DNA of 64,000 nt from assembly GCA_030390025.1 (NCBI GenBank), contig CM059431.1, forward strand, positions 122,266,001-122,330,000, read 5' to 3'. The position numbers were made by a program, and so were the translations under genes. The number at the start of each line of letters is the position of its first letter. Within the stretch, counting starts at the first letter, position 1. This document shows positions 831 to 64,000 of this stretch, piece by piece. The stretch is from Squalus acanthias (Eukaryota). The notes under the pieces are model-generated. The model searched no databases and had not been told where the DNA came from. It saw only the letters and a list, made by a program, of their open reading frames with translations.

Positions 831-1323
831 AATTTGCGGAACACCTCCGTTCAGTCCGTAAGGGTGACCCCGAGCTTCCGGTCGCCTATCACTTTAATTC
901 GCTACTCCACACCCACTCTGACCTCTCTGTCCTTGGCCTCTTACACTGTTCCACATAAGCTCAAGGAACAGCACCTCATCTTTTGATTAGGCACTTTACA
1001 GCCTTCTGGACTCAACATTGAGTTCAACAACTTCAGACTATAAACCCTACCCCCATTTTTCAGGCGGCTGTTGATGATTCTGCCATCCCCATTTGCAACA
1101 TTTAATCTCTCTTGCCTCCCACTCTAGCACAGACTGTTCCTTCAATTCTTTCCTTCCCCTCCCCTCCCCCTTTCCCTGTCTCTGCACCTGCTTAAAATCT
1201 GTTACATCTCTAACCTTTTCCAATTCTGATGAAGGGTCACAGACCAGAAATGTTAACTCTGTTTCTCTCTCCACGGATGCTGCCTGGCCTGCTGAGTGCT
1301 TCCAGCATTTTCTGTTGTTATTT
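831..1323 (+). mobile_element. Penelope-like element 3' fragment (GIY-YIG endonuclease C-terminus plus 3' UTR)
   Basis: Translates as FAEHLRSVRKGDPELPVAYHFNS..HSDLSVLGLLHC..EQHLIF*LGTLQPSGLNIEFNNFR. Flanking duplication CAATTAAAAT at 818-827 and 1324-1333. Confidence 0.85.
1222..1258 (+). ncRNA. Minimal type-I hammerhead ribozyme motif, partly decayed
   Basis: aatt-CTGATGA-a-GGGTC aca GACCA-GAA-ATGT-T-AACT. Core intact; stems carry substitutions relative to the 3208-3244 copy. Confidence 0.65.
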
Positions 1324-1939
1324 CAATTAAAATCGGGGATGCGCAAGAGGGCAGAATTGGAGGAGCGCAGAGATCTCAGAGGGTTGTAGGGCTGGGGGTG
1401 GTTACAGAGATTGGGAGGGGCGAGGCAATAAAGGGATTTGAAAATAAGGATGATCATTTTAAAATTGAGGCATTGCTGGACTGAGAGCCAATGTAGGTCA
1501 GCGAGCGCAGGGGTAGATGGGTGAAAGGGAATTGGTGCGAGTTAGGACATGGGCAGCAGAGTTTTGTATGAGCTCAAGTTCATAGAGGGTGAAAGATAGT
1601 AAGCCGGCTAGGAGAGCATTGGAATAATCAAGTCTAGAGGTAACAAAGGCATGGATGAGATTTTCAGCAGCAGATGAGCTGAGACAGGGGCGGAGTCGGG
1701 CAATGTTACAGAGGTGGAGGTAGGTGGTCTTGATGATGGAGCAGATATGTGGCCGGAAGCTCATCTCGGGGTCAATTATGACACCAAGGTTGTGAATGGT
1801 CTGGTTCAGCCTCAAACAGTTTCCAGGGAGAATGATGGAGTCGGTGGCTGGGGAACTGAGTTTTGGGCAACTAGGGATGGGCAATAAATACTGGCCTTGC
1901 CAGTGATGTTCACATCCCATTAATGAATAAACAAAACTG

Positions 1940-3065: not shown

Positions 3066-3146
3066 TCTCTTTAGCCTTTAACAATATCTTTTTGGTTGTT
3101 TTCCAAATTATTTGAAGAAAATAATTTCAAATGTGTTATTCAGACA

Positions 3147-3283
3147 CAACAACAGAAAATGCTGGAAACACTTAGCAGGTCAGGCAGCATCGTGGAAAGA
3201 GAAACAGAGTTAACGTTTCAGGTCAATGACCCTTCGTCAGAACTGGACAAAGTTGGAGAAATAACAGATTTTTAAGCAAGTGC
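3147..3283 (-). mobile_element. Short Penelope-like 3' end insertion
   Basis: Reverse complement of about 1185-1320; flanked by TATTCAGACA at 3137-3146 and 3284-3293. Confidence 0.8.
3208..3244 (-). ncRNA. Minimal type-I hammerhead ribozyme motif
   Basis: AGTT-CTGACGA-A-GGGTC att GACCT-GAA-ACGT-T-AACT: stem I AGUU/AACU, stem II GGGUC/GACCU, palindromic stem III ACGU. Confidence 0.8.
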
Positions 3284-7169: not shown

Positions 7170-7554
7170 CATGGGCAGAATTTTCTGGAGGAAGGGGAGT
7201 TGGGACGGGCGGGCTCCGATGCAGTCAGGAAACCCGGGAGTCTGGATTTCCCGCAGGCTCTGCCGACTTTAACGGCAGGGCCTGATTTGCATGTGAGACC
7301 TCGGTTTCCTTCCCGCAGCCAGCCAGATTGAGCGGCTGGCTGACTGTGGGGGTAGGCCTGTGGCCGCATGGAGCAGGGGGGGTGGGGGGGTATGCCTGAG
7401 GACCGGGGGACCAGGCAATGGATTGGGGTGGGGGGGAAGAGAGGACTCGGGGCCGGGCAATGGATCGGTGGGGGGTGGGGGTAGAGGTCCGGGGATCGGG
7501 GCCAAGCAGACGATCGGGGGGAGGGAGAGAGGACTGGGGATCAGACCGGGGGAT

Positions 7555-8034: not shown

Positions 8035-8465
8035 GGGGAGAGAGGACCGGGGATCGGGCCGGGGGAAGCATTGGTCGGGGGAGAGAGGACCGGGGATCGG
8101 GCCGGGGGAAGCATTGGTCGGGGGAGAGAGGACCGGGGATCGGGCCGGGGGAAGCATTGGTCGGGGGAGAGAGGACCGGGGATCGGGCCGGGGGAAGCAT
8201 TGGTCGGGGGAGAGAGGACCGGAGATCGGGCCGGGGGAAGCATTGGTCGGGGGAGAGAGGACCGGAGATCGGGCCGGGGGAAGCACTGGTCGGGGGAGAG
8301 AGGACCAGGGATCGGGCCGGGGGAAGCACTGGTCAGGGGAGAGAGGACGGGGGATCGGGCCGGGGGAAGCATCGTGGGGGAGAGAGGACCGGGGATCGGG
8401 CCGGGGGAAGCATTGGTCAGGGGAGAGAGGACCGGGGATCGGGCCGGGGGAAGCATCGTGGGGGA
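8035..8465 (+). repeat. 43-bp G-rich minisatellite, about 10 copies
   Basis: Unit GGGGAGAGAGGACCGGGGATCGGGCCGGGGGAAGCATTGGTCG. Confidence 0.95.
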
Positions 8466-18670: not shown

Positions 18671-21018
18671 CTAATCACCATTATGCATTTCCTTAATGCC
18701 TTTGCCTGTCCTAGTGCTCCTACGAGGTGCTGCCCAGTGGCTGCAGCATAGGTGGTGGAAGCTGATGACCTTCAATTGAGGAGACTGCAGATGGCCTTGG
18801 AGGGCAACCACGAGCAGCTCTGGGCCTAGAAGCCCCAGCTTCAGACTGCACTGTCGTGGCCTAGGCTGCCGCAGTCTGGGCTGGCTGGCTGACAGGCAAC
18901 AGCAAGGGCAATGGCAGAGTGGCGGTGGTTGGAGGATGAATGTTGTCATCCTGATAGAGGACAGCAGGTTCGTAGTCCATGAAGCCACTGCCACTCTCCC
19001 GGAGTGGAGCCTCAGCAATCCTAGTAATCTGTTGGAGAACAGATGGATGGACTGCTGTGATGCTCTGGAAGTCCCTTTGAACACTGGTATCCTGAGCCAT
19101 AATGGCAGCAGTCTGAGCTTCCTAGACAGCAGTCTGACCTTCCATTGCAGCACTCAAGACCTTTTGTGGACTCTACTCATTGGAGTTCAGAAGAATGAGA
19201 GGCGATCTTATTGAAACATATAAGATTGTGAAGGGGCTTGATCAGGTGGATGCGGTAAGGATGTTCCCAAGGATGGGTGAAACTAGAACTAGGGGGCATA
19301 ATCTTAGAATAAGGGGCTGCTCTTTCAAAACTGAGATGAGGAGAAACTTCTTCACTCAGAGGGTAGTAGGTCTGTGGAATTTGCTGCCCCAGGAAGCTGT
19401 GGAAGCTAAATCATTAACTAAATTTAAAACAGAAAGAGACAGTTTCCTAGAAGTAAAGGGAATTAGGGGTTACGGGGAGCGGGCAGGAAATTGGACATGA
19501 GGCTGAGTTCGGATCAGTCAAGGCCCTGTGGGTGATGGAGCGGGCCCAGGGGCTGAGTGGCCGGGTCCTGCTCCTACTTCTTGTGTTCTTTAGATTTGAG
19601 GTTAGGATCAGATCAGCCATGATCTTATTGAATGGCGGAGCAGGCTCGAGGGCCGATTGGCCTACTCCTGCTCCTATTTCTTATGTTCTTATGTTCTTAT
19701 GAATCTGCTTGTGCTGCAATGGAAGCTGAGACATCGGCCATCAGAAGCTGCATCATGCTGGGTTCCACAGGTGTGCTGATAGAGATGTTGGAAAGTATGG
19801 GCTCCAAGCTCTGTGCAGAGCCTTGTGCCAAGTTGGTGCTAGACGTCTCCACGCTCCTTGACATTGAGCGCAGGCTTTCTGGCAGGTTTTCCGGTGCACC
19901 AAACATATGGGCGTGCACACTCATCAGCCTTCTTCTGTAGGCTAGCCCATTGAAGTTGTCATCTGAGTCCTGTGCAGAAGACCTAGTGTGCGACTTGTCC
20001 TCCATCGAGCTGGCATTGGTGCTATCCTTTCCCCCCGCCCTGGCTCCTGCGCTCTTCTGCCCGTTGTCTCACCACTTGCAGATCCCTCCTCTATTTTAGC
20101 CTCGAAAATACATGCAGTGTCAATATCTGAGCTGCTAGCTGTGAGTGTAAGATCGAGTAATGGTGTCTCTTCATCTTCAGTGTCTTCCCCTTCTTTCTCC
20201 ACTGCCTGGGCAGGTTGTAGTTCTTGGTTATCTAAAATGAAAAAGGGGCATGGGTTGGGTTGTGATGAGGGTAGAGGAGAAAGTAAGAAGAGATTGAGGG
20301 ATGAAGGAGAAGTGGGATGAGGGAAGGAGGAATAGGAATGTGGATACCCTCATCATCAATCGCTTCAGCGCCGCCAGTGGCCACGGCCTCAGTGATGGCC
20401 CTTCCTATGATGGCCAACACTGTCTCCTCCATGGTAGAACATACAGGCGCACTTGTCCTCCTCCAGTTCTTTGCTGCCTGCTGTTATGCGCCACCTTCTC
20501 CTGAAAGATGGAGGGAAGTGTGTCAGTGAGAGTCCTGCAATATGTTTGGGTGATGCGGCTGTCATGGTAGAATAGCTGCCAATGGATGCAAGCTGTGAGT
20601 TGTGGGTGCAAGGCTTGCAACAGTGCTAAGTCTGTGAGGGTGAGGTAAAGCATATCATTGTTAGGGTTGAGTCCTGATTGATCGAGATTGTTGGCAGGCG
20701 AGTGATGGGGTTGTGGTGAATTGAGCAGTGGATGAGGCATTTGGTAGGATATGCCATGTGAAGAAGAAGTCACTCACCTAGCAACTCATGTGAGATCATT
20801 AAACTTCTTCCTGCACAACATCCACTTTTGACGAACAACCCTCCTGGCATTGACGTCCGCCGCTATTGCTTCCCACTACCTCCTGAGCATGTCTCGGGAG
20901 GGCCTCCTGCACCACCCTGTGGGTACAGGAGATCTCTCCTCCATTCTACCTCTTCCACCAAGGTCTCCAGTGTATTGTCTGAAAACCTTGGTGCTCACTC
21001 TCTCGCATGTTCAGCCAT
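18671..21018 (-). pseudogene. Three-exon Harbinger Myb/SANT-like gene (21018-20778, 20500-20348, 20231-about 18671)
   Basis: MAEHARE*APRFSDNTLETLVEEV..CRKKFNDLT then GTGAG donor; EKVAHNSRQQRTGGG; canonical AG/GT boundaries; exon 3 disrupted by a CR1. Confidence 0.8.
19168..19701 (+). mobile_element. Young CR1 LINE 3' fragment
   Basis: EFRRMRGDLIETYKIVKGLD..GYGERAGNWT, nearly identical to the 61751-63877 C-terminus; (TTCTTATG)n tail. Confidence 0.95.
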
Positions 21019-35227: not shown

Positions 35228-36813
35228 ACATAAGAACATAATAAGAACATAAGAAATAGGAGCAGGAGTAGGCCAATCGGCCCCTCGAGCCTGCTCCGCC
35301 ATTCAATAAGATCATGGCTGATCTGATCCTAACCGCCAATCTACTATCTATCACAGAACCATCTCCTGCATCTAACAGAATTGCACACACGAAATAGGAG
35401 CAGAATCAGGCTACACAGTCCCTGGGCCCGCTCCACTACCCACAGGGCCATGACCGATCCGAACCTAGACTCATGTCCAAATTCCTGCCCACTCCCCGTA
35501 ACCCTTAATGCCCTTTACTTCTAGGAAACTGTCTATTTCTGTTTTAAATTTAATTAATGTTGTAGCTTCTACAGCTTTTTGTGGCAGCATATTCCATGGA
35601 CCTACCACCCTCTGAGTGAAGTAGTTCCTCCTCATCTCAGTTTTGAAAGAGCAGCCCCTTATTCTAAGACTATGTCCCCTAGTTCTCGTCTCACCCGTCA
35701 TCGGGAACATCCTCCCCGCATCCACCCGATCCAACCCCTTCACAATCTTATATGTTTCAATAAGATCGCCTCTCATTCTTCTGAACTCCAATGAGTAGAG
35801 TCCCAATCTACCCAACCTCTCCTCATATGACCACCCCCTCATCCCCGGGATTAACCGAGTGAACCTTTTTTGCACTGCCTCGAGAGCAAGGATGTCTTTC
35901 CTTAAGTAAGGACACCAAAACTGTATGCAGTATTCCAGGTGCGGTCTCACCAATACCTTGTACAACTGAAGCAATACCTCCCTATTTTTATATTCTATCC
36001 CCCTAGCAATGAAAGCCAACATTCCATTTGCCTTCTTAATCACTTGCTGCACCTGCATACTAACCTTTTGAGTTTCGTGCACCAGGACCCCCAGATCCCT
36101 TTGCACTTCAGTACTCTCCAGTTTCTTGCCATTAAGATAATAAATTGCTCTAGGATTTTTCCTGCCAAAGTGCATCACCTCACACTTTCCAGTGTTGTAT
36201 TCCATCTGCCAAATCTCTGCCCACTTACTTAGCCTGTCTATGTCCCCTTGCAGGTTTTTTATGTCCTCCTCACTCACTACTTTCCCTCCCATCTTTGTAT
36301 CATCTGCAAATTTTGATATGTTACACTTGGTCCCTTCCTCCAAATCGTTAATATAGATTGTGAAGAGTTGGGGACCCAGCACTGACCCCTGTGGAACACC
36401 ACTAGTTACTGATTGCCAGTCTGAGAATGAACCATTTATCCCAACTCTAAGCTTTCTGTTAGATAGCCAATCCTCTATCCATGCCAGAATATTACCCCCA
36501 ATCCCGTGATTTTTTACCTTAAGCAATAATCTTTTGTGTGGCACCTTGTCAAATGCCTTTTGGAAGTCTAAATACACTACGTCCACTGGTTCCCCTTTAT
36601 CCACTCTATATGTTACTTCCTCAAAGAACTCCAGCAAATTTGTCAAACATGACTTCCCCTTCGTAAAACCATGCTGACTTTGTCCTATTAAATTATGATT
36701 ATCCAAATGTCCTGTTACTGTTTCCTTAATAATGGACTCCAAAATTTTACCTACCACAGATGTTAGGCTAACCGGTCTATAGTTACCAGCCTTCTGTCTA
36801 CTGCCCTTTTTAA
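35228..36813 (-). mobile_element. CR1 LINE, 5'-truncated
   Basis: (ACATAAGA)n tail; ATCTT on both flanks. Confidence 0.95.
35471..36757 (-). CDS. CR1 ORF2 reverse transcriptase fragment, 428 aa, uninterrupted
   Basis: QHGFTKGKSCLTNL, YLDFQKAFDKV, GVPQGSVLGP, FADD, RDLGV. Confidence 0.9.
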   Translation of the reverse strand: MVGKILESIIKETVTGHLDNHNLIGQSQHGFTKGKSCLTNLLEFFEEVTYRVDKGEPVDVVYLDFQKAFDKVPHKRLLLKVKNHGIGGNILAWIEDWLSNRKLRVGINGSFSDWQSVTSGVPQGSVLGPQLFTIYINDLEEGTKCNISKFADDTKMGGKVVSEEDIKNLQGDIDRLSKWAEIWQMEYNTGKCEVMHFGRKNPRAIYYLNGKKLESTEVQRDLGVLVHETQKVSMQVQQVIKKANGMLAFIARGIEYKNREVLLQLYKVLVRPHLEYCIQFWCPYLRKDILALEAVQKRFTRLIPGMRGWSYEERLGRLGLYSLEFRRMRGDLIETYKIVKGLDRVDAGRMFPMTGETRTRGHSLRIRGCSFKTEMRRNYFTQRVVGPWNMLPQKAVEATTLIKFKTEIDSFLEVKGIKGYGEWAGIWT

Positions 36814-38004
36814 ATCTTGGTAAAGGGGTTGAAGCTTGCGCTAGGAATGGCCGCCTGGAGGATCGTTAAGCAGCTGATTGCCACTTATATTGCCTGCTAG
36901 CACTCATTAAAGAGGCTAGCAATTCAACTATCACCCTCTCCTAACAGCGATCAGCTGATTGGGAGTAAACTAGTCGTTGCTGAGAATTTCGAGTGCTACT
37001 TAAAGGTATATCACATTTCACTGTTCACTTGCCACTGGAGCTTTGAAGAGGACTTCTGAAAACACATCGGGAGACTTTCTGGGACACTTTGTCAAGACAT
37101 CACTAACACTCTATCAATGTTTATTCTGGAAATTCTCTGAGGAGAATAGAGTAAGGCCGCGCAATTCGGCACCTTAGCACCAGTAGTTCTTGACAGTTTT
37201 TGAAAAAAAGCATCGGCCGTCTTGCTTCCGCCCACTTTTGGTGCAGCCCGCGCTGCTCACCATCTTGGTGAAGACGATAGCGCAGGTGGTACATGTGTGC
37301 ACCGACAGTATGCAGAGTAGGCAAATCGTGATGTCAGTCAGCGTGCAAAGCTGAGTTGATGCAAGACCTGCCATTTTGGATGTCGCCACTCCAATCAACG
37401 CCCTCTCCTAAATACGTGCAGCTGAATGCATGGGAACCCCCACATGTGCTATTTAAAGAGATACATGCAACTTGCAGAGTTTATATGAGTACTGGTTGCT
37501 GGAAAACATTAAAAAGTTGTTAAAGTGTGCAGGGAGTGCTGCTCGACATTGGGAAAGTGTTGGCTGCTACTGGAAGGCCTCTGACTACACCACTTGCTCC
37601 CAGTCATGGGGGCTCTAATAGCAGTGCCCCTCGCACTGCAGCATGACAGGGAGATAGAGCAGAGGCAGCAAAGAAGACAAGCTGCTTGCAGAGGGAGGAG
37701 GGGGAGGGGAATGAGGGCTCTCAGCAGGAGGCCTTACCCACCCAGGACCTTCAGGGAGCACTTTGCCTACCTGCACCTAAACCAGGAGCAGTGTGTTCGG
37801 CGGCTCCGCTTCCCCAAGGAGGTGGTCACAGAACACTGCCACCTCTTGCAACCAGACCTGTAGCCTCAGAGCAGGGTGATGATGGCACTGCCAATGGCCC
37901 TCAAGGTAACTGTGGCCATGAACCTTTTCACCAGCGGGTCCTACCAGGCTGGAACATGCAACATAGCAAACATTTGCTTTTCGCCGTCCAAACCTAAAAA
38001 GCAG

Positions 38005-39165
38005 CTTGATACAACTGAGTGACTTGCTCGGCCATTTCAGAGGGCAGTGAAGTATCAACCACATTGCTCTGGGTCTGGAGTCACATATAGGTCATGTGGG
38101 TAAGGACGGCAGAATCCTCCCTCAAAGGACATTAATAAACCAGATGCACTTTTATGATAATCCGGTAGTGTCATGGTCACCATTACTGATAAAAGCTTCT
38201 TATTCCAGATTTATTTAATTGACTGAATTGAAATTTCCCAGCTGTCGTGGTGGGATTTGAACTGCATGGGCTGGTATTTACCTGCCGAGACGAGTTAGGG
38301 GCGAGACTGCTGCCTTCTGGGTTCCAGTCCCACCCCCAGCGACGTCCAATGCACAGACGCTATTTTCCCCTGATTGGCCTTGTTAAGCCGCCCTGCGGGC
38401 TTGCTGGCCAATTAAGGGAAAGCCGGTGACAGATGACGTCAGTTGATGATGCTTCATCTGCCGGTTTTCTGAAAGGGGCATGAACCATTTATTTTTGACA
38501 GATGATTTGACAGTGTTTGACAGCATTGAGGTGCTGTCAAACACTGACAATCACTGTACAAAGGTGAGCCCTTTTACCCAGGCTTTCCAATGGCTCTCTC
38601 CTTAGGATAAAACAGATAGCAGCTGCAGGTGAGGGTACAGAAGCGATCTGTCACTTCTCCCAATGAGGTGAGGCCACACAAACACTTCAAAGCTTGCCAC
38701 CTACAGAAAAATCTAAACACATTAAAAATGACTTTCTCAATACTTCCTTACCTCTGATAGATACCCACCAGTGTCCCATTGCATCCTTCACACCACTTTT
38801 GCAGCTGTCATCTATACACAAACATTACAATAGACCCACAGCATGCCACACTTACCCTGGCGGGGTTCCCCGCCGTCGGGAAGCCCGCAGCAGAAGTCTC
38901 AAAATGGGAAAAAGCCTCTTAACTGCCTGTTAACTACCTGTTAACAGGCAGTTAAGTGGCTATAATCCTCTTCCCGCTGCTAGGAGTTGGGTCCTTGTGC
39001 AAATCGGGGACCCGACTCCTGGGAAGATTGGTTGGAGGCAGGTTGGGAGTGGGTTCGGGACCCACTCCCATTCTTTTTGATTTTCCCAGCAGTCCCGCCT
39101 CCAAACCCACCTCCTCAGGGCTGGTAAAATCCAGTCCCATGTCTCTGGATTATTAGTCCAGTCCT
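38005..39165 (-). mobile_element. tRNA-derived SINE split by a Harbinger derivative
   Basis: Minus strand tggactaataatccagagacatg|cagttcaaatcccacc (B-box-like) joins across the insertion. Confidence 0.6.
38268..39137. mobile_element. Non-autonomous Harbinger derivative
   Basis: TIRs GGGCTGGTATTTACC and GGTAAAATCCAGTCC; TSD CAT; same family as 3328-5092. Confidence 0.85.
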
Positions 39166-47838: not shown

Positions 47839-49092
47839 AATTTCCGATCACACAAAGATCAATGAACACTTCACTCCTATTAAACTGCAGTTTTTACACT
47901 GCAATGAAGAAACAAATTGAAACTTATTGTGAGGGAATCCCTCGTTTCTGAAGATAGTTAGTTAGAGGCTGCCAAGGGATTCATTGTGGTTGGATAATTT
48001 CTTATATTGCTTTAAATATTTAATTATTTGTCAGAAAAAGTATGATTAGAAAATAAGGTTAGAGAATTGGAACAGCAGTGTCAAATTAAAAAAAAAACCC
48101 TTGAGAGATTTGGAAAAAACTCCATTTAGTAAGAATTAAGTTAAATCTGATACTTGCATGGAAAACTGAAAGAAATATTAGAAATGGAAATGTTATATCG
48201 TGTTGTATGAGGAGAGAACAAGCCAGTGGGATAGCTTTGGACTGGCTGTAAGCAAAGAGCTGGCACAGACACGATGGGCCAAATGGCCTCCTTCTGTACT
48301 GTAAACTTCTATGGAGTGGTATTAAATGGCTCAGAGCACAGACCAACAATGTCCTTAAGTCAAACAGGATAAATACTTAAAGTTAATGGGGGTAGAAATT
48401 GCTTCACGTCCCACCAATTTTTAGAGCACAAATTCAGTGTTGGACCTACAAATTTTGCCGTCGGACATCTCACATCGAAGTGTGTACAAAGTGTGGCCGC
48501 CGCCATCTTGGTAAAGGTGGACATTAGGTGTCCCTGCCAACAGCCTGCAAGGAACTCTGGTGGCATTAAAATATGTTAATAGGGCTCCTGTACTTGAATT
48601 AGGACCCCATTTTTACGGAATTAGTGCTTGCGAGCCTTTCATTCATACTTTTTTATACCCAGCCAGAAAAACAGGGTGCCAATACTCAGGAAGCTGGCTG
48701 AAGCAGCACTATTTAAAGGGGTCCTCACCTCTATTCAGGTAAGTCATTGGAAAGTCGTTTTTGGCTACTGGGGATTTTTGAAGCTATTTTTGTGGCTATT
48801 TGGCTGAGTTTTGGCAATAGTTCAGAATACACAGCAGTTGGACTGCTGCCTTTTGGCTGCAGCTGCTCTTTATGACTCCATTAGCTGCAGGAGGCCCAGA
48901 AAAGGTGAGAATGTTACTGGGAATACCATTGAGGCTCTCAAAGCAGTGACAGCAACAACAGCAACAGCAACAACAGCAACAACAGCAGCTGCACAGACTT
49001 GTGAAGGCTCCAGGAAGACGACAAAGGAGGCACGGGTCAAGGAAGCGTCAAAACGTGCGGGTCTTCCGGAACAGGATGTCTTACCTCAACAT

Positions 49093-49305
49093 GTGAGAAG
49101 TCGCACAACACCAGGTTATAGTCCAACAGCTTTATTTGAAATCACAAGCTTTCGGAGCGCTGCTCCTTCGTCAGGTGACTTCACCTGACGAAGGAGCAGC
49201 GCTCCGAAAGCTTGTGATTTCAAATAAAGCTGTTGGACTATAACCTGGTGTTGTGCGACTTCTCACTTTTGTCCACTCCAGTCCAACACCGGCATCTCCG
49301 CATCA
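49093..49305 (+). mobile_element. Penelope-like inverted insertion with two hammerhead motifs
   Basis: Perfect 86-bp inverted repeat (49093-49178 and 49181-49266); 12-bp TSD TTACCTCAACAT. Confidence 0.85.
49181..49217 (+). ncRNA. Minimal type-I hammerhead ribozyme motif (identical copy on the minus strand at 49142-49178)
   Basis: TCAC-CTGACGA-A-GGAGC agc GCTCC-GAA-AGCT-T-GTGA. Confidence 0.8.
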
Positions 49306-50713
49306 TTACCTCAACATAACAGAGGAGCAGTGTGTGAGGAGGCTGTGCTTTAGCAGGCAGGCAGTCACTGTCCTATGTCACCTGTTGCAGTAGGAATTGG
49401 AGCCAAACACCAGGGCACACATGGCACAGGCTGTGGCTAGTGGTTCTCAAATTCTATGCAACAGGCTTATTCGAGGCTGCAACAGGTGACATCAGCAACA
49501 TTAGTCAGTTTGTTGTTCATACGGCCGTTAAGCAGGTGATAGATGCCATCTTTGCAAGGAAACAGCATTGCATCACCTTCCCTATGCAACCTTCTGGTCA
49601 GGTGGAGTGAGTTCTCGGATTTGCCCGCATTGCTGAATTTCCCCAGCTGCAAGGTGCAATTGTCTGCACATATGTTGCCATGCATTCTCCCCATCACAAA
49701 CCAGCCATGTGTTGTAACAGGAAGGATCGCCACGCCTTGAATGTTCAGTTGGTTTGTGACCACAGGGAGCGAATAATACAGGTCTGTGCCAGGTACCGTA
49801 GCAGTAGTGATGACGCCTTCATATTGGGCCAGTGTTCAATCCCCCCTGTCTTCGATCCAGACCAGCAGGTGTCAGGCTGTATCCTTGGAGACAGGGGGTA
49901 TCCCATCTGTACCTGGCTCGTAACCACTTTTCACGATTCTCGGCACAGACGCAGAGAACCAATATAATGAGAGCCACACTCAAACCAGAGCTCTCACTGA
50001 GCATATCATAGGCAGCCTCAATCAAAGGTTCCAGTGCCTGGACTGCTCCAGAAGAGCCTGACAATATAGCCTCGACCAAGTCTCCAGATGTATCGTGGCT
50101 TGGTTCATCTTACACAACTATGGTATTTGGAGAGGCCATGCCTTGCAGCTGCCAGAGGAGGAAGCAGTGCAGGAGCAAGATTGAGAAGGGGATGAGGAAG
50201 AAGAGGATGATGAGGAAGACCAAGGCCGAGCAGTGCTGTAAGGCAACAAATTATTGAGAAGAGATTTTCCTAAGCAAACCTTCCCCCAGCACACCAGCAG
50301 TTCCACCATTTGACCCACTCCTTCCACCAACCTTCTGAACGTTCTCCAACACTACTACCTCATTGGTCTTCCTCCAATGAATATGAAGATCAATAGCAAA
50401 GCGAAGCAAATAAAAACTGTTTACTTCACATCATGCACATTGTTTGTTTCACAACCTTTTCCTCCTCTCCATATTGAAATTGGCCCTCGGTACTTGTTGA
50501 CCTATTCTAGTGCCTATACCAAGTACTTTCCTGTCGCAGGAGCCTGGGAGGTAGAAAGGTGTTGATCAGCCACTGAGGGCACTTGAAATGGCCATGGTGG
50601 GCGACATCAAGCAGCTCTGGGCCTAGAAGGCCCTAGCTACAGATTACTGAGTCGAGGCGTCTGATGGAGCAGTTTGGGCAAGCTTGTTGTGAGGGACAAA
50701 TAAAGGCACTGGG

Positions 50714-61548: not shown

Positions 61549-63877
61549 ACATAAGAACATAAGAACATAAGAAATAGGAGCAGGAGTAGACCAATCGGCC
61601 CCTCGAGCCTGCTCCGCCATTCAATGAGATCATGGCTGATCTGATCCAACCTCAACTCTAAAGAACACAAGAAGTAGGAGCAGGACCAGGCGACTCGGCC
61701 CCTGGGCCCACTCCGCCACCCACAGGGCCTTGACCGATCCGAACATAAACTCATGTCCAATTTCCTGCCCGCTCCCCATAACCCCTAATTCCCTTTACTT
61801 CTAGGAAACGGTCTATTTCTGTTTTAAATTTATTTAATGAAGTAGCTTCCACAGCTTCCTGGGGTAGCAAATTCCACAGACCCACTACCCTCTGAGTGAA
61901 AAAGTTTCTCCTCATCTCAGTTTTGAAAGAGCAGCCCCTTATTCTAAGATTATGTCCCCTAGTTCTAGTTTCACCCATCATTGGGAACATCCTCACCGCG
62001 TCCACCCGATCAAGCCCCTTCACAATCTTATATGTTTCAATAAGATCGCCTCTCATTCTTCTGAACTCCAATGAGTAGAGCCCCAATCTACTCAACCTTT
62101 CCTCGTATGTCCACCCCCTCATCCCCGGAATTAACCGAGTGAACCTTCTTTGTACTGCCTCGAGAGCAAGTATGTCTTTTCTTAAGTATGGACACCAAAA
62201 CTGTATGCAGTACTCCAGGTGCGGTCTCACCAATACCCTATACAACTGCAGCAATACCTTCCTGTTTTTATATTCTATCCCCCTAGCAATAAAAGCCAAC
62301 ATTCCATTGGCTTTCTTGATCACCTGCTGCACCTGCATACTAACTTTTTGATTTTCTTGCACCAAGACCCCCAGATCCCTTTTTACTGCAGTACTTTCCA
62401 GTTTCTCGCCATTAAGATAATAACTTGCTCTCTTATTTTTCCTGCCAAAGTGCATAACCTCACATTTTCCAATATTGTATTGCATCTGCCAAATCTCTGC
62501 CCACTCACCCAGCCTGTCTATATCCCCTTGTAGGTTTTTTATGTCCTCCTCACTCTCTACTTTCCCTCCCATCTTTGTATCATCTGCAAACTTTGATATG
62601 TTACACTCGGTCCCCTCCTCCAAATCGTTAATATAGATTGTAAAGAGTTGGGGACCCAGCACTGACCCCTGCGGAACACCACTGGCTACTGGTTGCCAGT
62701 CCGAGAATGAACCATTTATCCCAACTCTCTGCTTCCTGTTAGATAACCAATCCTCCACCCATGCCAGAATATTCCCCCCAATCCAATGATTTTTTATCTT
62801 GAGTAATAATCTTTTATGTGGCACCTTGTTAAATGCCTTCTGGAAGTCTAAATACACTACATCCACTGGTTCCCCTTTATCCACCCTGTACGTTATGTCC
62901 TCAAAGAACTCGAGCAAATTTGTCAGACATGACTTCCCCTTCATAAAGCCATGCTGACTTTGTCCTATTAAATTATGTTTATCTAAATGTTCCGTTACTG
63001 TCTCCTTAATAATAGACTCCAAAATTTTACCCACCACAGATGTTAGGCTAACTGGTCTATAATTTCCAGCCTTCTGCCTACAACCCTTTTTAAATAAGGG
63101 TGTTACATTAGCAGTTTTCCAATCTGCCGGGACCTTTGCTGAGTTCAGGGAGTTTTGGAAAATTATTACCAAAGCATCCACAATCCCTATTGCCACTTCC
63201 CTCAAGACCCTAGGATGTAAGCCATCAGGTCCAGGGGATTTATCCGCCTTGAGTCCCATTATTTTACTGAGTACCAATTCCCTAGTGATTTTAATCGTAT
63301 TTAGCTCCTCCCCCACTAGAGCCCCCTGTTTGTCCAGTGTTGGGATATTCTTAGTGTCCTCTACCGTAAAGACTGGAACAAAATATTTGTTCAGCATTTT
63401 TGCCATCTCCATGTTTCCCACCATTAATTTCCCGGTCTCATCCTCTAAGGGACCTACGTTTGTCTTAACCACCCTTTTTCTTTTTATATAACTATAGAAA
63501 CTCTTGCTATCTGTTTTTATATTTTTTGCTAATTTATTTTCATAGTCTATCTTCCCTTTCTTAATCAATCCTTTAGTTACTTTTTGTTGTCTTTTGAAGA
63601 CTTCCCAATCTTCTATCCTCCCACTAACTTTGGCTACCTTATATGTCCTTGTTTTTAGTTGGATACTTTCTTTAATTTCTTTACTTAGCCATGGATGGCT
63701 GTCATTTCTTTTACACCCTTTTTTCCTCAGTGGAATATATTTATTTTGAAAGTTGTAAAATAACTCCTTGAATGAACACCACTGCTCATGTACCGTCTTA
63801 CCCTTTAATCTATTTTCGCAGTCCACTTTAATCAATACTGCTCTCATACCATCATAGTCTCCTTTATTCAAGCTCAA
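61549..63877 (-). mobile_element. Young CR1 LINE, 5'-truncated
   Basis: (ACATAAGA)n tail; GTGTT on both flanks (61544-61548, 63878-63882). Confidence 0.97.
61751..63877 (-). CDS. CR1 ORF2 fragment, 708 aa, complete RT domain, no endonuclease domain
   Basis: KSPGPDGLHPRVL, PLFKKG..GNYRPVSLTS, YLDFQKAF, GVPQGSVLGP, FADD; no stops. Confidence 0.92.
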   Translation of the reverse strand: MSLNKGDYDGMRAVLIKVDCENRLKGKTVHEQWCSFKELFYNFQNKYIPLRKKGCKRNDSHPWLSKEIKESIQLKTRTYKVAKVSGRIEDWEVFKRQQKVTKGLIKKGKIDYENKLAKNIKTDSKSFYSYIKRKRVVKTNVGPLEDETGKLMVGNMEMAKMLNKYFVPVFTVEDTKNIPTLDKQGALVGEELNTIKITRELVLSKIMGLKADKSPGPDGLHPRVLREVAIGIVDALVIIFQNSLNSAKVPADWKTANVTPLFKKGCRQKAGNYRPVSLTSVVGKILESIIKETVTEHLDKHNLIGQSQHGFMKGKSCLTNLLEFFEDITYRVDKGEPVDVVYLDFQKAFNKVPHKRLLLKIKNHWIGGNILAWVEDWLSNRKQRVGINGSFSDWQPVASGVPQGSVLGPQLFTIYINDLEEGTECNISKFADDTKMGGKVESEEDIKNLQGDIDRLGEWAEIWQMQYNIGKCEVMHFGRKNKRASYYLNGEKLESTAVKRDLGVLVQENQKVSMQVQQVIKKANGMLAFIARGIEYKNRKVLLQLYRVLVRPHLEYCIQFWCPYLRKDILALEAVQRRFTRLIPGMRGWTYEERLSRLGLYSLEFRRMRGDLIETYKIVKGLDRVDAVRMFPMMGETRTRGHNLRIRGCSFKTEMRRNFFTQRVVGLWNLLPQEAVEATSLNKFKTEIDRFLEVKGIRGYGERAGNWT

Positions 63878-64000
63878 GTGTTGTTATGGGCCGTGTGTTA
63901 TGTAGTGACAGATTAGAAATCCAGGTATATAAAAGTGCCTGAATATCAGATTAAACTGCAGTTGTGCAGAGGGGTTAAAGGCATCATTTATCTTTTATCC

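What the first reader, a model, noticed from the sequence alone, without database searches (positions are those of the whole stretch)
49093..49305. Back-to-back twin hammerhead ribozymes in a perfect 86-bp palindrome
Seen: a 213-bp insert with a 12-bp TSD and two perfectly complementary 86-bp arms 2 nt apart. Each arm carries CUGACGA-stem II-GAA-AGCU-U closed by UCAC/GUGA, followed by AATAAA. Established: Penelope-like elements carry minimal hammerheads with palindromic stem III and often insert with inverted terminal copies. Inference: this is a recent non-coding insertion that offers a ribozyme and a polyA signal on either strand, while read-through RNA would fold into an 86-bp duplex that masks the ribozyme and could be an ADAR or Dicer substrate.
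Basis: partly seen in the sequence, partly recalled or inferred. Interest (0 to 1): 0.72.

Follow-up and report, generated by a model that had tools for sequence, protein, structure and literature searches.

The report
Stump of a Penelope-like jumping gene
The palindrome is real, but it is a short leftover of a very abundant Penelope-like jumping gene that landed as a mirror-image double copy, an arrangement already described, and its two ribozyme motifs are most likely passengers that cannot fold in RNA read through the site.

Summary
Observation confirmed: 86-bp perfect arms 2 nt apart, a 39-nt one-sided tail and a 12-bp direct repeat (true TSD 11-13 bp), inserted in frame into a dead Harbinger transposase. 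Related Harbinger copies lack the insert. Each arm matches the published minimal-hammerhead consensus; Rfam has no hammerhead hit. The arm belongs to a young, very high-copy family with two classes of 3' end and other head-to-head joins at variable points. This is the published Penelope-like pattern: pLTR, inverted 5'-truncated copy, 30-40-nt tail, TSD. The two ribozymes lie on opposite strands and never share an RNA. In read-through RNA both ribozyme stems and AAUAAA are predicted fully paired, so the 'ribozyme plus polyA on either strand' reading is weak; editing or Dicer cutting is untested. No RT+GIY-YIG parent could be tested. The scan noted the same kind before in this genome and another (e1-7790103, e1-7858806). 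One useful lead: the tail-bearing arm starts at an initiator-like base and ends where PAc starts reverse transcription, which suggests two target-primed run-off cDNAs joined head to head.

The parts
49081..49092 (+). Left target-site duplication (12-nt repeat; true length 11-13)
   Evidence: D8; single copy in related Harbinger copies, tables 5c, 7, 8
49093..49178 (-). Inverted, 5'-truncated pLTR copy without tail (86 nt)
   Evidence: I1; its outer end (49266 in right-arm terms) lies 2-9 nt from the family's short 3'-end class at 49268-49275, table 7
49131..49136 (-). AATAAA of the inverted arm
49142..49178 (-). Minimal type I hammerhead motif, minus strand; predicted cut 3' of 49146
   Evidence: mirror of the plus-strand motif
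49178..49180 (.). Head-to-head junction; A49178 is shared by both arms and is the +1 of an initiator-like YYANWYY in the family consensus
   Evidence: table 7 (loose ends before 49178); initiator consensus from my own knowledge
49178..49266 (+). Direct pLTR copy, 5'-truncated at or near the inferred transcript start
49181..49217 (+). Minimal type I hammerhead motif: helix I 49181-84/49214-17, core 49185-91, extra A 49192, helix II 49193-97/49201-05, GAAA 49206-09, AGCU palindrome 49209-12, predicted cut 3' of U49213
   Evidence: consensus of PMC4209133 Fig. S3
49223..49228 (+). AATAAA of the direct arm (AU-rich stretch after helix I)
   Evidence: similar stretches in published rows
49267..49305 (+). 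39-nt C/A-rich PLE 'tail' (40 nt if T49306 is counted), on one end only; carries one apparently private change at 49277
   Evidence: family ends behind 49306 in 83 (X1), 62 (X5) and 11 (X21) contigs, and the other base at 49277 has 97-100% of the depth in all 4 runs, tables 7 and 3
49306..49317 (+). Right target-site duplication
   Evidence: D8
49040..49967 (+). Host: decayed Harbinger/HARBI1-type transposase gene interrupted in frame (225 bp added); further stops and frame changes lie outside the insert
   Evidence: DDE_Tnp_4, E 1.3e-9, in 49611-49964; 'YLN' read on both sides of the insert in one frame; stops

Best explanation
This is a stump-sized insertion of an endonuclease-positive Penelope-like retroelement (PLE): one short pLTR with its tail, plus an inverted, tail-less copy of the same pLTR joined head to head, between target-site duplications, inside an already dead Harbinger transposase gene. 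Shown here: the anatomy, the empty site in related Harbinger copies, the high-copy family, its two classes of 3' end and other head-to-head joins. Inferred mechanism (my odds 0.5 within this explanation, against 0.35 for self-priming fold-back): the PLE protein nicked both strands 11-13 bp apart. Each nick primed reverse transcription inside uncleaved element RNA, one at the outer start site (tail end, 49306) and one at the inner site about 40 nt further 5' (49266). Both cDNAs ran to or near the RNA 5' end just upstream of the hammerhead (49178-49181) and were joined through 1-2 nt of homology; repair filled the gaps. The hammerhead and AAUAAA serve the parent element (processing of its own RNA, probably as a protein-assisted or dimeric ribozyme). 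In this copy they are passengers: any read-through RNA folds into an 86-bp hairpin that hides both.
For: Anatomy. Published PLE pattern: an inverted 5'-truncated copy and a 30-40-bp tail at one end (PMC8557442); head-to-head palindromic junctions, a 31-bp tail and 8-10-bp TSDs (PMC3846280); opposite-strand dual min-HHRs 100-700 bp apart in Schistosoma (PMC4209133). Motif fits the min-HHR consensus, and the Chrysemys and Philodina rows have the same GAAA-GC-U-U. Family: summed depth over 49107-49301 is 1.4-3.3 million in X1 against 15.5 for a 381-nt zero-difference flank contig; 12,538 of 16,766 contigs laid in X1 are >=95% alike; loose ends with unlike flanks lie behind 49270-49275, before 49091 and behind 49306. 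Empty site: in X6, 21 contigs join 49307 to a consensus matching the left flank 49052-49081 at 26 of 30 letters (compared by eye); an X5 joint runs 49093->49339 with letters matching 49319-49333 at 14 of 15; 8 of 32 pieces shown begin at 49306-49309. Geometry: the tail end is +116 from A9. [quoted passage not shown] Family consensus before 49178 gives YYANWYY with +1 at 49178 in 4 of 4 runs and TATAAG at -28..-23 in 2 of 4 (table 7; YYANWYY occurs at 1.1% of window positions). 8 of the 15 joints shown have >=2 nt microhomology against 15% of random joints.
Against: No RT+GIY-YIG parent was seen: no genome is held, and 4 of 4 collection scans gave 0 matches. No Rfam hammerhead hit. The family continues upstream of 49178 in other copies, so 49178 is not its 5' limit; the start-site reading rests on 30-letter consensus ends (agreement 0.49-0.75) whose far part few contigs cover, and 2 of 4 runs lack the TATA-like word. 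Only 3 of the 15 joints shown land at 49178-49179. The 15 joints are the best-supported of 216, have sides of 18-29 letters, 11 have 'between: not known', and their direction cannot be read on a palindromic reference. The two-primer route is not separated from fold-back by anything I measured. Summed contig depth is not a copy number (tool's warning). No contig shown spans this locus's own centre or flanking junctions.
Confidence: 0.88

Rival explanations
1. Same identity, different route: one cDNA, primed at the tail end, ran to about 49178, folded back on itself and was copied into the inverted arm (self-priming hairpin); endonuclease resolution then left the tail on one side.
For: Self-priming is the published proposal for junction palindromes (PMC3846280), and EN-mediated resolution for the tail (PMC8557442). 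In this copy the tail-bearing arm reaches 2-3 nt further 5' than the inverted arm, as a loop would leave. One family joint (49158->49200, letters AGC between, depth 242 in X1 and 201 in X5) is centred on the hammerhead's own helix II hairpin. Arms are identical (0 of 86 differences).
Against: The family consensus offers only 1 nt of self-complementarity at this centre (2 nt if a cap-templated base is assumed), closing a 2-4-nt loop. The inverted arm's outer end lies near the family's second 3'-end class, which in PAc is a second RT start site.
Confidence: 0.33
2. One reading: the palindrome acts as a two-way cassette (ribozyme plus polyA signal on each strand) or as a selected source of dsRNA for ADAR or Dicer.
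For: Both motifs are intact. An RNA starting at the centre can fold the helices (helix I 0.92-1.0 for RNAs starting at 49175-49181 and ending at 49230). D. virilis Penelope has an internal promoter, so a promoter could survive in the arms (PMC2377424). One 3,967-nt contig of run X21 (RNA by guess) crosses the centre of a related palindrome (49138-49263, 16 differences, 4 gaps; table 8).
Against: Read-through RNA hides both helices and AAUAAA. With the tail included, helix I falls to 0.16-0.65. Helix III needs a partner in trans, and the free-fold dimer is not the hammerhead dimer. A tested Schistosoma min-HHR showed no activity as a monomer and low activity as a dimer; PAc's needs protein. The site is a dead transposase gene. 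None of the 15 joints shown keeps both cores (skip-type joints are biased to lose sequence). No TATA-like word in 49001-49400.
Confidence: 0.07
3. A non-autonomous palindromic unit that amplifies as such (MITE-like or retrozyme-like), so that the mirror structure is inherited rather than rebuilt at each insertion.
For: Several family joints have depths of 100-600, against about 15-50 for single-copy flank, and 12 of the 15 shown occur in both X1 and X5, so some centres recur (table 5).
Against: The 15 joints shown all differ. The tail lies outside the inverted repeat on one side only, and the TSD is 11-13 bp. There is no head-to-tail tandem, which non-LTR retrozymes need (bioRxiv 10.64898/2026.07.22.740005). 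An 86-bp hairpin would hide the RT start region.
Confidence: 0.06
4. Assembly or library fold-back artefact.
For: No piece shown spans this locus's centre or junctions; perfect palindromes can be made by fold-back reads (my own knowledge).
Against: TSD on both sides, an in-frame host gene, an empty site in related copies, a one-sided tail ending at the family's end, and other head-to-head joints in two samples of two studies.
Confidence: 0.02

Closest known systems
EN+ Penelope-like element insertion unit with inverted 5'-truncated pLTR and tail (Arkhipova et al. 2013, PMC3846280; Craig et al. 2021, PMC8557442; Schostak et al. 2008, PMC2377424)
   Same: Head-to-head inverted pLTR, 30-40-nt tail at one end, short TSD, palindrome at the junction, initiator-like word at the pLTR start.
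   Different: No ORF or body at all: the unit is only 213 bp and almost wholly one perfect palindrome, against 18-38-bp junction palindromes in the rotifer examples. Parent not identified.
[quoted passage not shown]
   Same: CUGANGAH core with the extra base before G10.1, G10.1-C11.1, GAAA, palindromic 15.1-16.1, 4-bp helix I, AU-rich downstream; opposite-strand pairs were already noted.
   Different: Published opposite-strand pairs are 100-700 bp apart; here the two C3 bases are 11 bp apart. Helix II is 5 bp. No cartilaginous-fish row in the Fig. S3 text I read.
Poseidon element of Anolis carolinensis, PAc (Frangieh et al. 2024, PMC11167929)
   Same: Hammerhead about 115 nt upstream of the outer RT start; two classes of 3' end bounding a tail; uncleaved RNA copied (the stump keeps the 5' side of the cut site).
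   Different: PAc's start codon lies in the hammerhead; here there is none at that place (AAG). No sequence comparison was run; clade unknown.
Non-LTR retrozymes (bioRxiv 10.64898/2026.07.22.740005)
   Same: Short, non-coding, pLTR-derived, type I hammerhead.
   Different: Retrozymes are head-to-tail tandems with two or more motifs on one strand; this is head to head with one motif per strand.

Membership tests
EN+ Penelope-like element | pLTR carrying a type I hammerhead motif | tested here: met
EN+ Penelope-like element | Adjacent inverted 5'-truncated copy, head to head | tested here: met
   other head-to-head joints
EN+ Penelope-like element | 30-40-bp tail at one end only; two classes of 3' end in the family | tested here: met
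   39-40 nt; loose ends at 49268-49275 and 49306
EN+ Penelope-like element | Short TSD with a single copy at the empty site | tested here: met
   11-13 bp; empty site seen in related Harbinger copies, not shown for the orthologous allele
EN+ Penelope-like element | Parent ORF with telomerase-like RT and GIY-YIG endonuclease flanked by this pLTR | not testable with these tools
Minimal hammerhead (min-HHR) | Core CUGANGA, extra base, G10.1-C11.1, GAAA, NUH, helices I and II | tested here: met
   against the PMC4209133 Fig. S3 consensus
Minimal hammerhead (min-HHR) | Palindromic helix III for dimer formation | tested here: met
   AGCU at 49209-49212; self-duplex only -2.5 kcal/mol
Minimal hammerhead (min-HHR) | Core conserved and helices covarying across copies | tested here: inconclusive
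   one search shows 40 of 370 substitution rows (none in the core) and 12 of 36 indel rows (the 2 in the element sit at the edge of loop II); one related subfamily end (10 contigs) keeps the core with a G-U in helix II; no alignment of copies could be made
Minimal hammerhead (min-HHR) | Self-cleavage | not testable with these tools
   needs an in vitro assay
Rfam hammerhead families | Match to a curated covariance model | tested here: not met
Non-LTR retrozyme | Head-to-tail tandem with at least two motifs on one strand | tested here: not met
MITE / DNA transposon | Inverted repeats at both termini and a fixed internal sequence | tested here: not met
   39-nt tail outside the repeat; variable centres
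microRNA precursor | Match at a family's gathering score | tested here: not met
   best 52.7 bits against a cut-off of 135

The most novel reading that the evidence does not exclude
These stumps are a natural read-out of the unsolved second half of PLE retrotransposition. The transcript starts at 49178, seven bases before the hammerhead core. A dimeric RT primes from both target nicks at two internal start sites (+89 and +129) on uncleaved RNA, runs off the 5' end and joins the two cDNAs head to head. That one route would explain the tail, the inverted pLTR, the near-zero spacer and the flood of ORF-less stumps, and the family, apparently present in very many young copies, would let it be tested by computation alone. 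A by-product would be a large load of perfect 60-90-bp hairpins in the host's transcripts.
Probability: 0.35. Interest if true: 0.55.

Novelty: new member of a known kind. Interest (0 to 1): 0.25.

Why it matters
As a single locus it matters little: it is a dead piece of one mobile element inside another. As a family it could matter, because how PLEs make inverted pLTRs and tails is still described as undefined (PMC8557442; 'additional steps yet to be validated', PMC11167929). A young family with many independent head-to-head joins could separate two-primer synthesis from fold-back, and would show whether a vertebrate tolerates many perfect hairpins in its RNA.

Tried and rejected
Rfam at gathering score (whole window) and at E<=10 (48900-49500): no hammerhead model; hairpin-type hits rejected as generic. 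No whole genome is held. Exact-pattern scans for family copies: 0 in metagenome contigs, viral contigs and prokaryote genomes. No second copy of the family in the window. Run search: no RNA holder listed. Pfam on 24 of the 82 stop-to-stop frames of >=100 aa: 3 hits (2 RVT_1, 1 DDE_Tnp_4), none GIY-YIG; 0 of 4 short Harbinger-region frames hit; the other frames were not scanned. The host-frame line printed was in the wrong frame and is not used; one search replaces it. The sign of the junction offsets was rejected, because a palindromic reference cannot tell which arm bears the tail. Depth ratios of arm to tail (about 2 in X1, about 5.5 in X5 and X6, 1.6 in X21) disagree between runs and are not used. 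Change counts in X21 (T>C 26 of 109 places, against 38 of 251 in X1) are not read as editing: the RNA label is a guess and no DNA of the same individual was laid. The shared start GACTA behind 49306 in 3 of the 3 runs that show that end could be an ATG of the parent ORF or a neighbouring element; agreement is 0.38-0.46, so it is left open. The host lineage was not tested; 'shark-like' comes from earlier notes and my recall. Paper searches (listings only, except for the papers read) found no paper describing such near-zero-spacer hammerhead palindromes in cartilaginous fish, or twin priming in PLEs; subscription papers, Repbase and Dfam are not covered.

Full report
1. Observation. The structure is as described. 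Two 86-nt arms (49093-49178, 49181-49266) are 100% complementary and 2 nt apart, and a 12-nt direct repeat flanks the 213-bp insert. The next best perfect inverted repeat with a gap of 11 nt or less in the window has 17-nt arms. Exact 12-mers repeat within 300 nt at 332 of about 64,000 positions, so the repeat counts because it sits at both edges. A 39-nt C/A-rich stretch (49267-49305) lies outside the palindrome on the right only. Each arm reads helix I (4 bp), CUGACGA, an extra A, helix II (5 bp, loop AGC), GAAA, GC, U, U, helix I, then AATAAA 9 nt later. Rfam finds no hammerhead: 0 hits at gathering score in 64 kb, and none among 13 matches at E<=10 in 48900-49500. The loose core pattern is not above chance (7 against 4.85; 26 of 100 shuffles reach 7). 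A descriptor that also asks for helices I and II finds only the two arms, and nothing in 60 of 60 Markov controls (written after seeing the motif).

2. Surroundings. The insert sits in a decayed Harbinger-type transposase gene: DDE_Tnp_4 at E 1.3e-9 downstream, and one frame reads ...RNRMSYLN on the left and YLNITEEQCVRRLCF on the right. Stops and frame changes outside the insert show that the gene is dead regardless. The rest of the window is repeat-rich, with two LINE-type RT frames.

3. The family. No genome is held, and 4 of 4 collection scans were blank. The run search listed 23 runs, 5 holding half the words or more, all of organism A, in two studies. I laid 4 of them on 48990-50150 at 80% likeness: X1 and X5 (organism A, two samples), X6 (organism B) and X21 (organism A, RNA by guess). 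Only part of each table is shown: 40 of 370 substitutions, 12 of 36 indels, 15 of 216 joints, 24 of 1,352 loose ends and 32 of 35,613 pieces.

(a) Abundance. Summed depth over the element is 1.4-3.3 million in X1, against 15.5 for a zero-difference flank contig. The tool warns that this is no copy number; I take it only as 'very high copy'. 12,538 of 16,766 contigs laid in X1 are at least 95% alike.

(b) Ends. Loose ends with unlike flanks (agreement 0.37-0.51) fall in two classes: behind 49270-49275 or before 49091 (mirror 49268), and behind 49304-49306. These match the tail-less and tail-bearing ends of this insert.

(c) Empty site. In X6, 21 contigs join 49307 to a consensus that matches the left flank at 26 of 30 letters (by eye). 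An X5 joint goes from 49093 to 49339 with letters that match 49319-49333 at 14 of 15. These are related Harbinger copies with one copy of the target word, not proven alleles. They also show that the TSD edges are uncertain (11-13 bp).

(d) Age. The alternative bases at 49256 and 49267 have 97-98% of the depth in X6, but 4-6% and 20-22% in X1 and X5; this copy has the organism-A type. That suggests amplification after the A-B split (inference). One apparently private change lies in the tail (49277). The arms differ at 0 of 86 places (upper 95% bound 3.4%).

(e) Other joins. All 15 joints shown link the left arm to the right arm, so they are other head-to-head junctions, each at a different point. 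Their offsets are 0-66 nt (median 16), and 8 of 15 have at least 2 nt of microhomology against 15% of random joints. None keeps both cores, but skip-type joints are biased to lose sequence, their sides are only 18-29 letters, and their direction is unreadable on a palindromic reference. One is centred on helix II itself.

(f) The 5' side. The family continues upstream of 49178. Its consensus there makes A49178 the +1 of an initiator-like YYANWYY in 4 of 4 runs (the word occurs at 1.1% of window positions; consensus from my own knowledge), with TATAAG at -28..-23 in 2 of 4 runs. Few contigs reach that far, so this is a hint.

4. Folding. Read-through RNA of either strand forms one long hairpin (-195 and -198 kcal/mol) with helix I and II probabilities of 0.0. 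Helix I is lost when the RNA starts at 49170 or earlier, and AAUAAA is paired when it starts at 49120 or earlier. Only RNAs starting at the centre fold the motif: helix I 0.92-1.0 if short, 0.16-0.65 with the tail. Helix III needs a partner; the AGCU self-duplex is -2.5 kcal/mol, and the free-fold dimer is a different structure. The two motifs are on opposite strands, so no single RNA holds both.

5. How it most likely arose. Shown: the parts, the family ends and the empty site. Known: PAc protein nicks and extends both strands, starts reverse transcription at two internal sites that bound the tail (+111-118 from an ORF start at stem II), is predicted to be a dimer, and copies uncleaved RNA; its hammerhead cuts only with protein (PMC11167929). 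Here the tail ends at +116 from A9 and the short ends at +76-85, and the insert keeps the 5' side of the cut site. Inferred: two nicks, two primers, two cDNAs ending within 3 nt of each other near the RNA start, joined head to head (odds 0.5). The rival is fold-back self-priming of one cDNA (0.35), the published proposal (PMC3846280). It fits the helix-II-centred joint but has only 1-2 nt to prime from at this centre. Nothing measured here separates the two.

6. Comparison with what is known. PMC8557442 (passages) describes an adjacent inverted 5'-truncated copy and a 30-40-bp tail as typical of PLEs. PMC3846280 (passages) shows inverted pLTRs, a 31-bp tail, 8-10-bp TSDs, junction palindromes and a TATA/initiator pair in a pLTR. 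PMC4209133 (main text parts 1-2 of 4, supplement parts 1-2 of 3) defines the min-HHR consensus that this motif fits, notes opposite-strand pairs 100-700 bp apart, and reports no monomer and low dimer activity. Its rows show U at the cut site and AAUAAA after helix I in several species. PMC2377424 (passages) reports an internal promoter in D. virilis Penelope, so a promoter inside the arms is not excluded. The retrozyme preprint (parts 1-2 of 5 and passages) requires head-to-tail tandems, which are absent here. PMC11167929 was read in parts 1-3 of 4; its Fig. S2 file held no text. It works like a PLE stump, and 4 of 5 listed PLE features are met; the parent ORF could not be tested.

7. Novelty. 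The architecture and the motif are published. The near-zero spacer is one end of a range of joins in the family. Seven paper searches found no description of this exact form in cartilaginous fish; that host label is from earlier notes and recall, not tested. The scan has noted the same kind in this genome (e1-7790103) and another (e1-7858806); these are unchecked notes and not support. Look-ups by sequence and by nearness were blank.

8. Verdict. A real feature and a correct catch, but a new member of a known kind; interest 0.25. One contig of X21 crosses a related palindrome's centre, a weak hint that such hairpins occur in RNA. The most novel open reading, run-off double priming from a start just before the hammerhead, has probability 0.35 and would deserve 0.55.

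Noticed in passing
window 1184-1325 (+) and 3142-3283 (-): Two copies (87% alike) of a second, otherwise unalignable repeat with a min-HHR-type core: 1226-1255 is decayed, 3211-3240 keeps helix II and a palindromic CG after GAAA. Probably pLTR fragments of another PLE family, facing each other about 1.8 kb apart.
   Followed up: partly
window 49225-49306: The tail can pair back with the arm in two ways: 9 bp with 49231-49239 (minimum-energy fold) or 8-10 bp with about 49246-49256. This may be the counterpart of the stem-loop in which PAc starts reverse transcription.
   Followed up: partly
loose ends behind 49306: The consensus begins with the same five letters in X1, X5 and X21, giving an ATG at the tail end; it may be the parent ORF start or a neighbouring element (earlier notes report a Tx1 LINE that targets PLE tails in this genome).
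   Followed up: no
loose end before 49201 (X1, 10 contigs) and table 5c (X5, 49123->49201): Related subfamilies with a different helix II 5' strand and loop but an intact CUGANGA core.
   Followed up: no
window 35471-36865 and 61751-63883 (both -): Two LINE-type RT frames (RVT_1), 88.6% alike over 1,590 nt; the second is open for 710 aa. A third piece at 19168-19701 is 94% alike to the second.
   Followed up: no
window 49731-49769: A local depth spike (21,251 in X1, 39,730 in X5) with loose ends before 49730-49738 inside the Harbinger remnant; a short word shared with another abundant repeat.
   Followed up: no
window 8035-8456 and 7398-7495: G-rich 43-bp tandem arrays (9.9 copies at 95% match; 2.3 copies at 75%).
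   Followed up: no
window 38918-38956, 38511-38546, 49375-49492: Smaller perfect inverted repeats: 17-nt arms with a 5-nt gap, 15-nt arms with a 6-nt gap, and 16-nt arms 86 nt apart within the Harbinger remnant.
   Followed up: no
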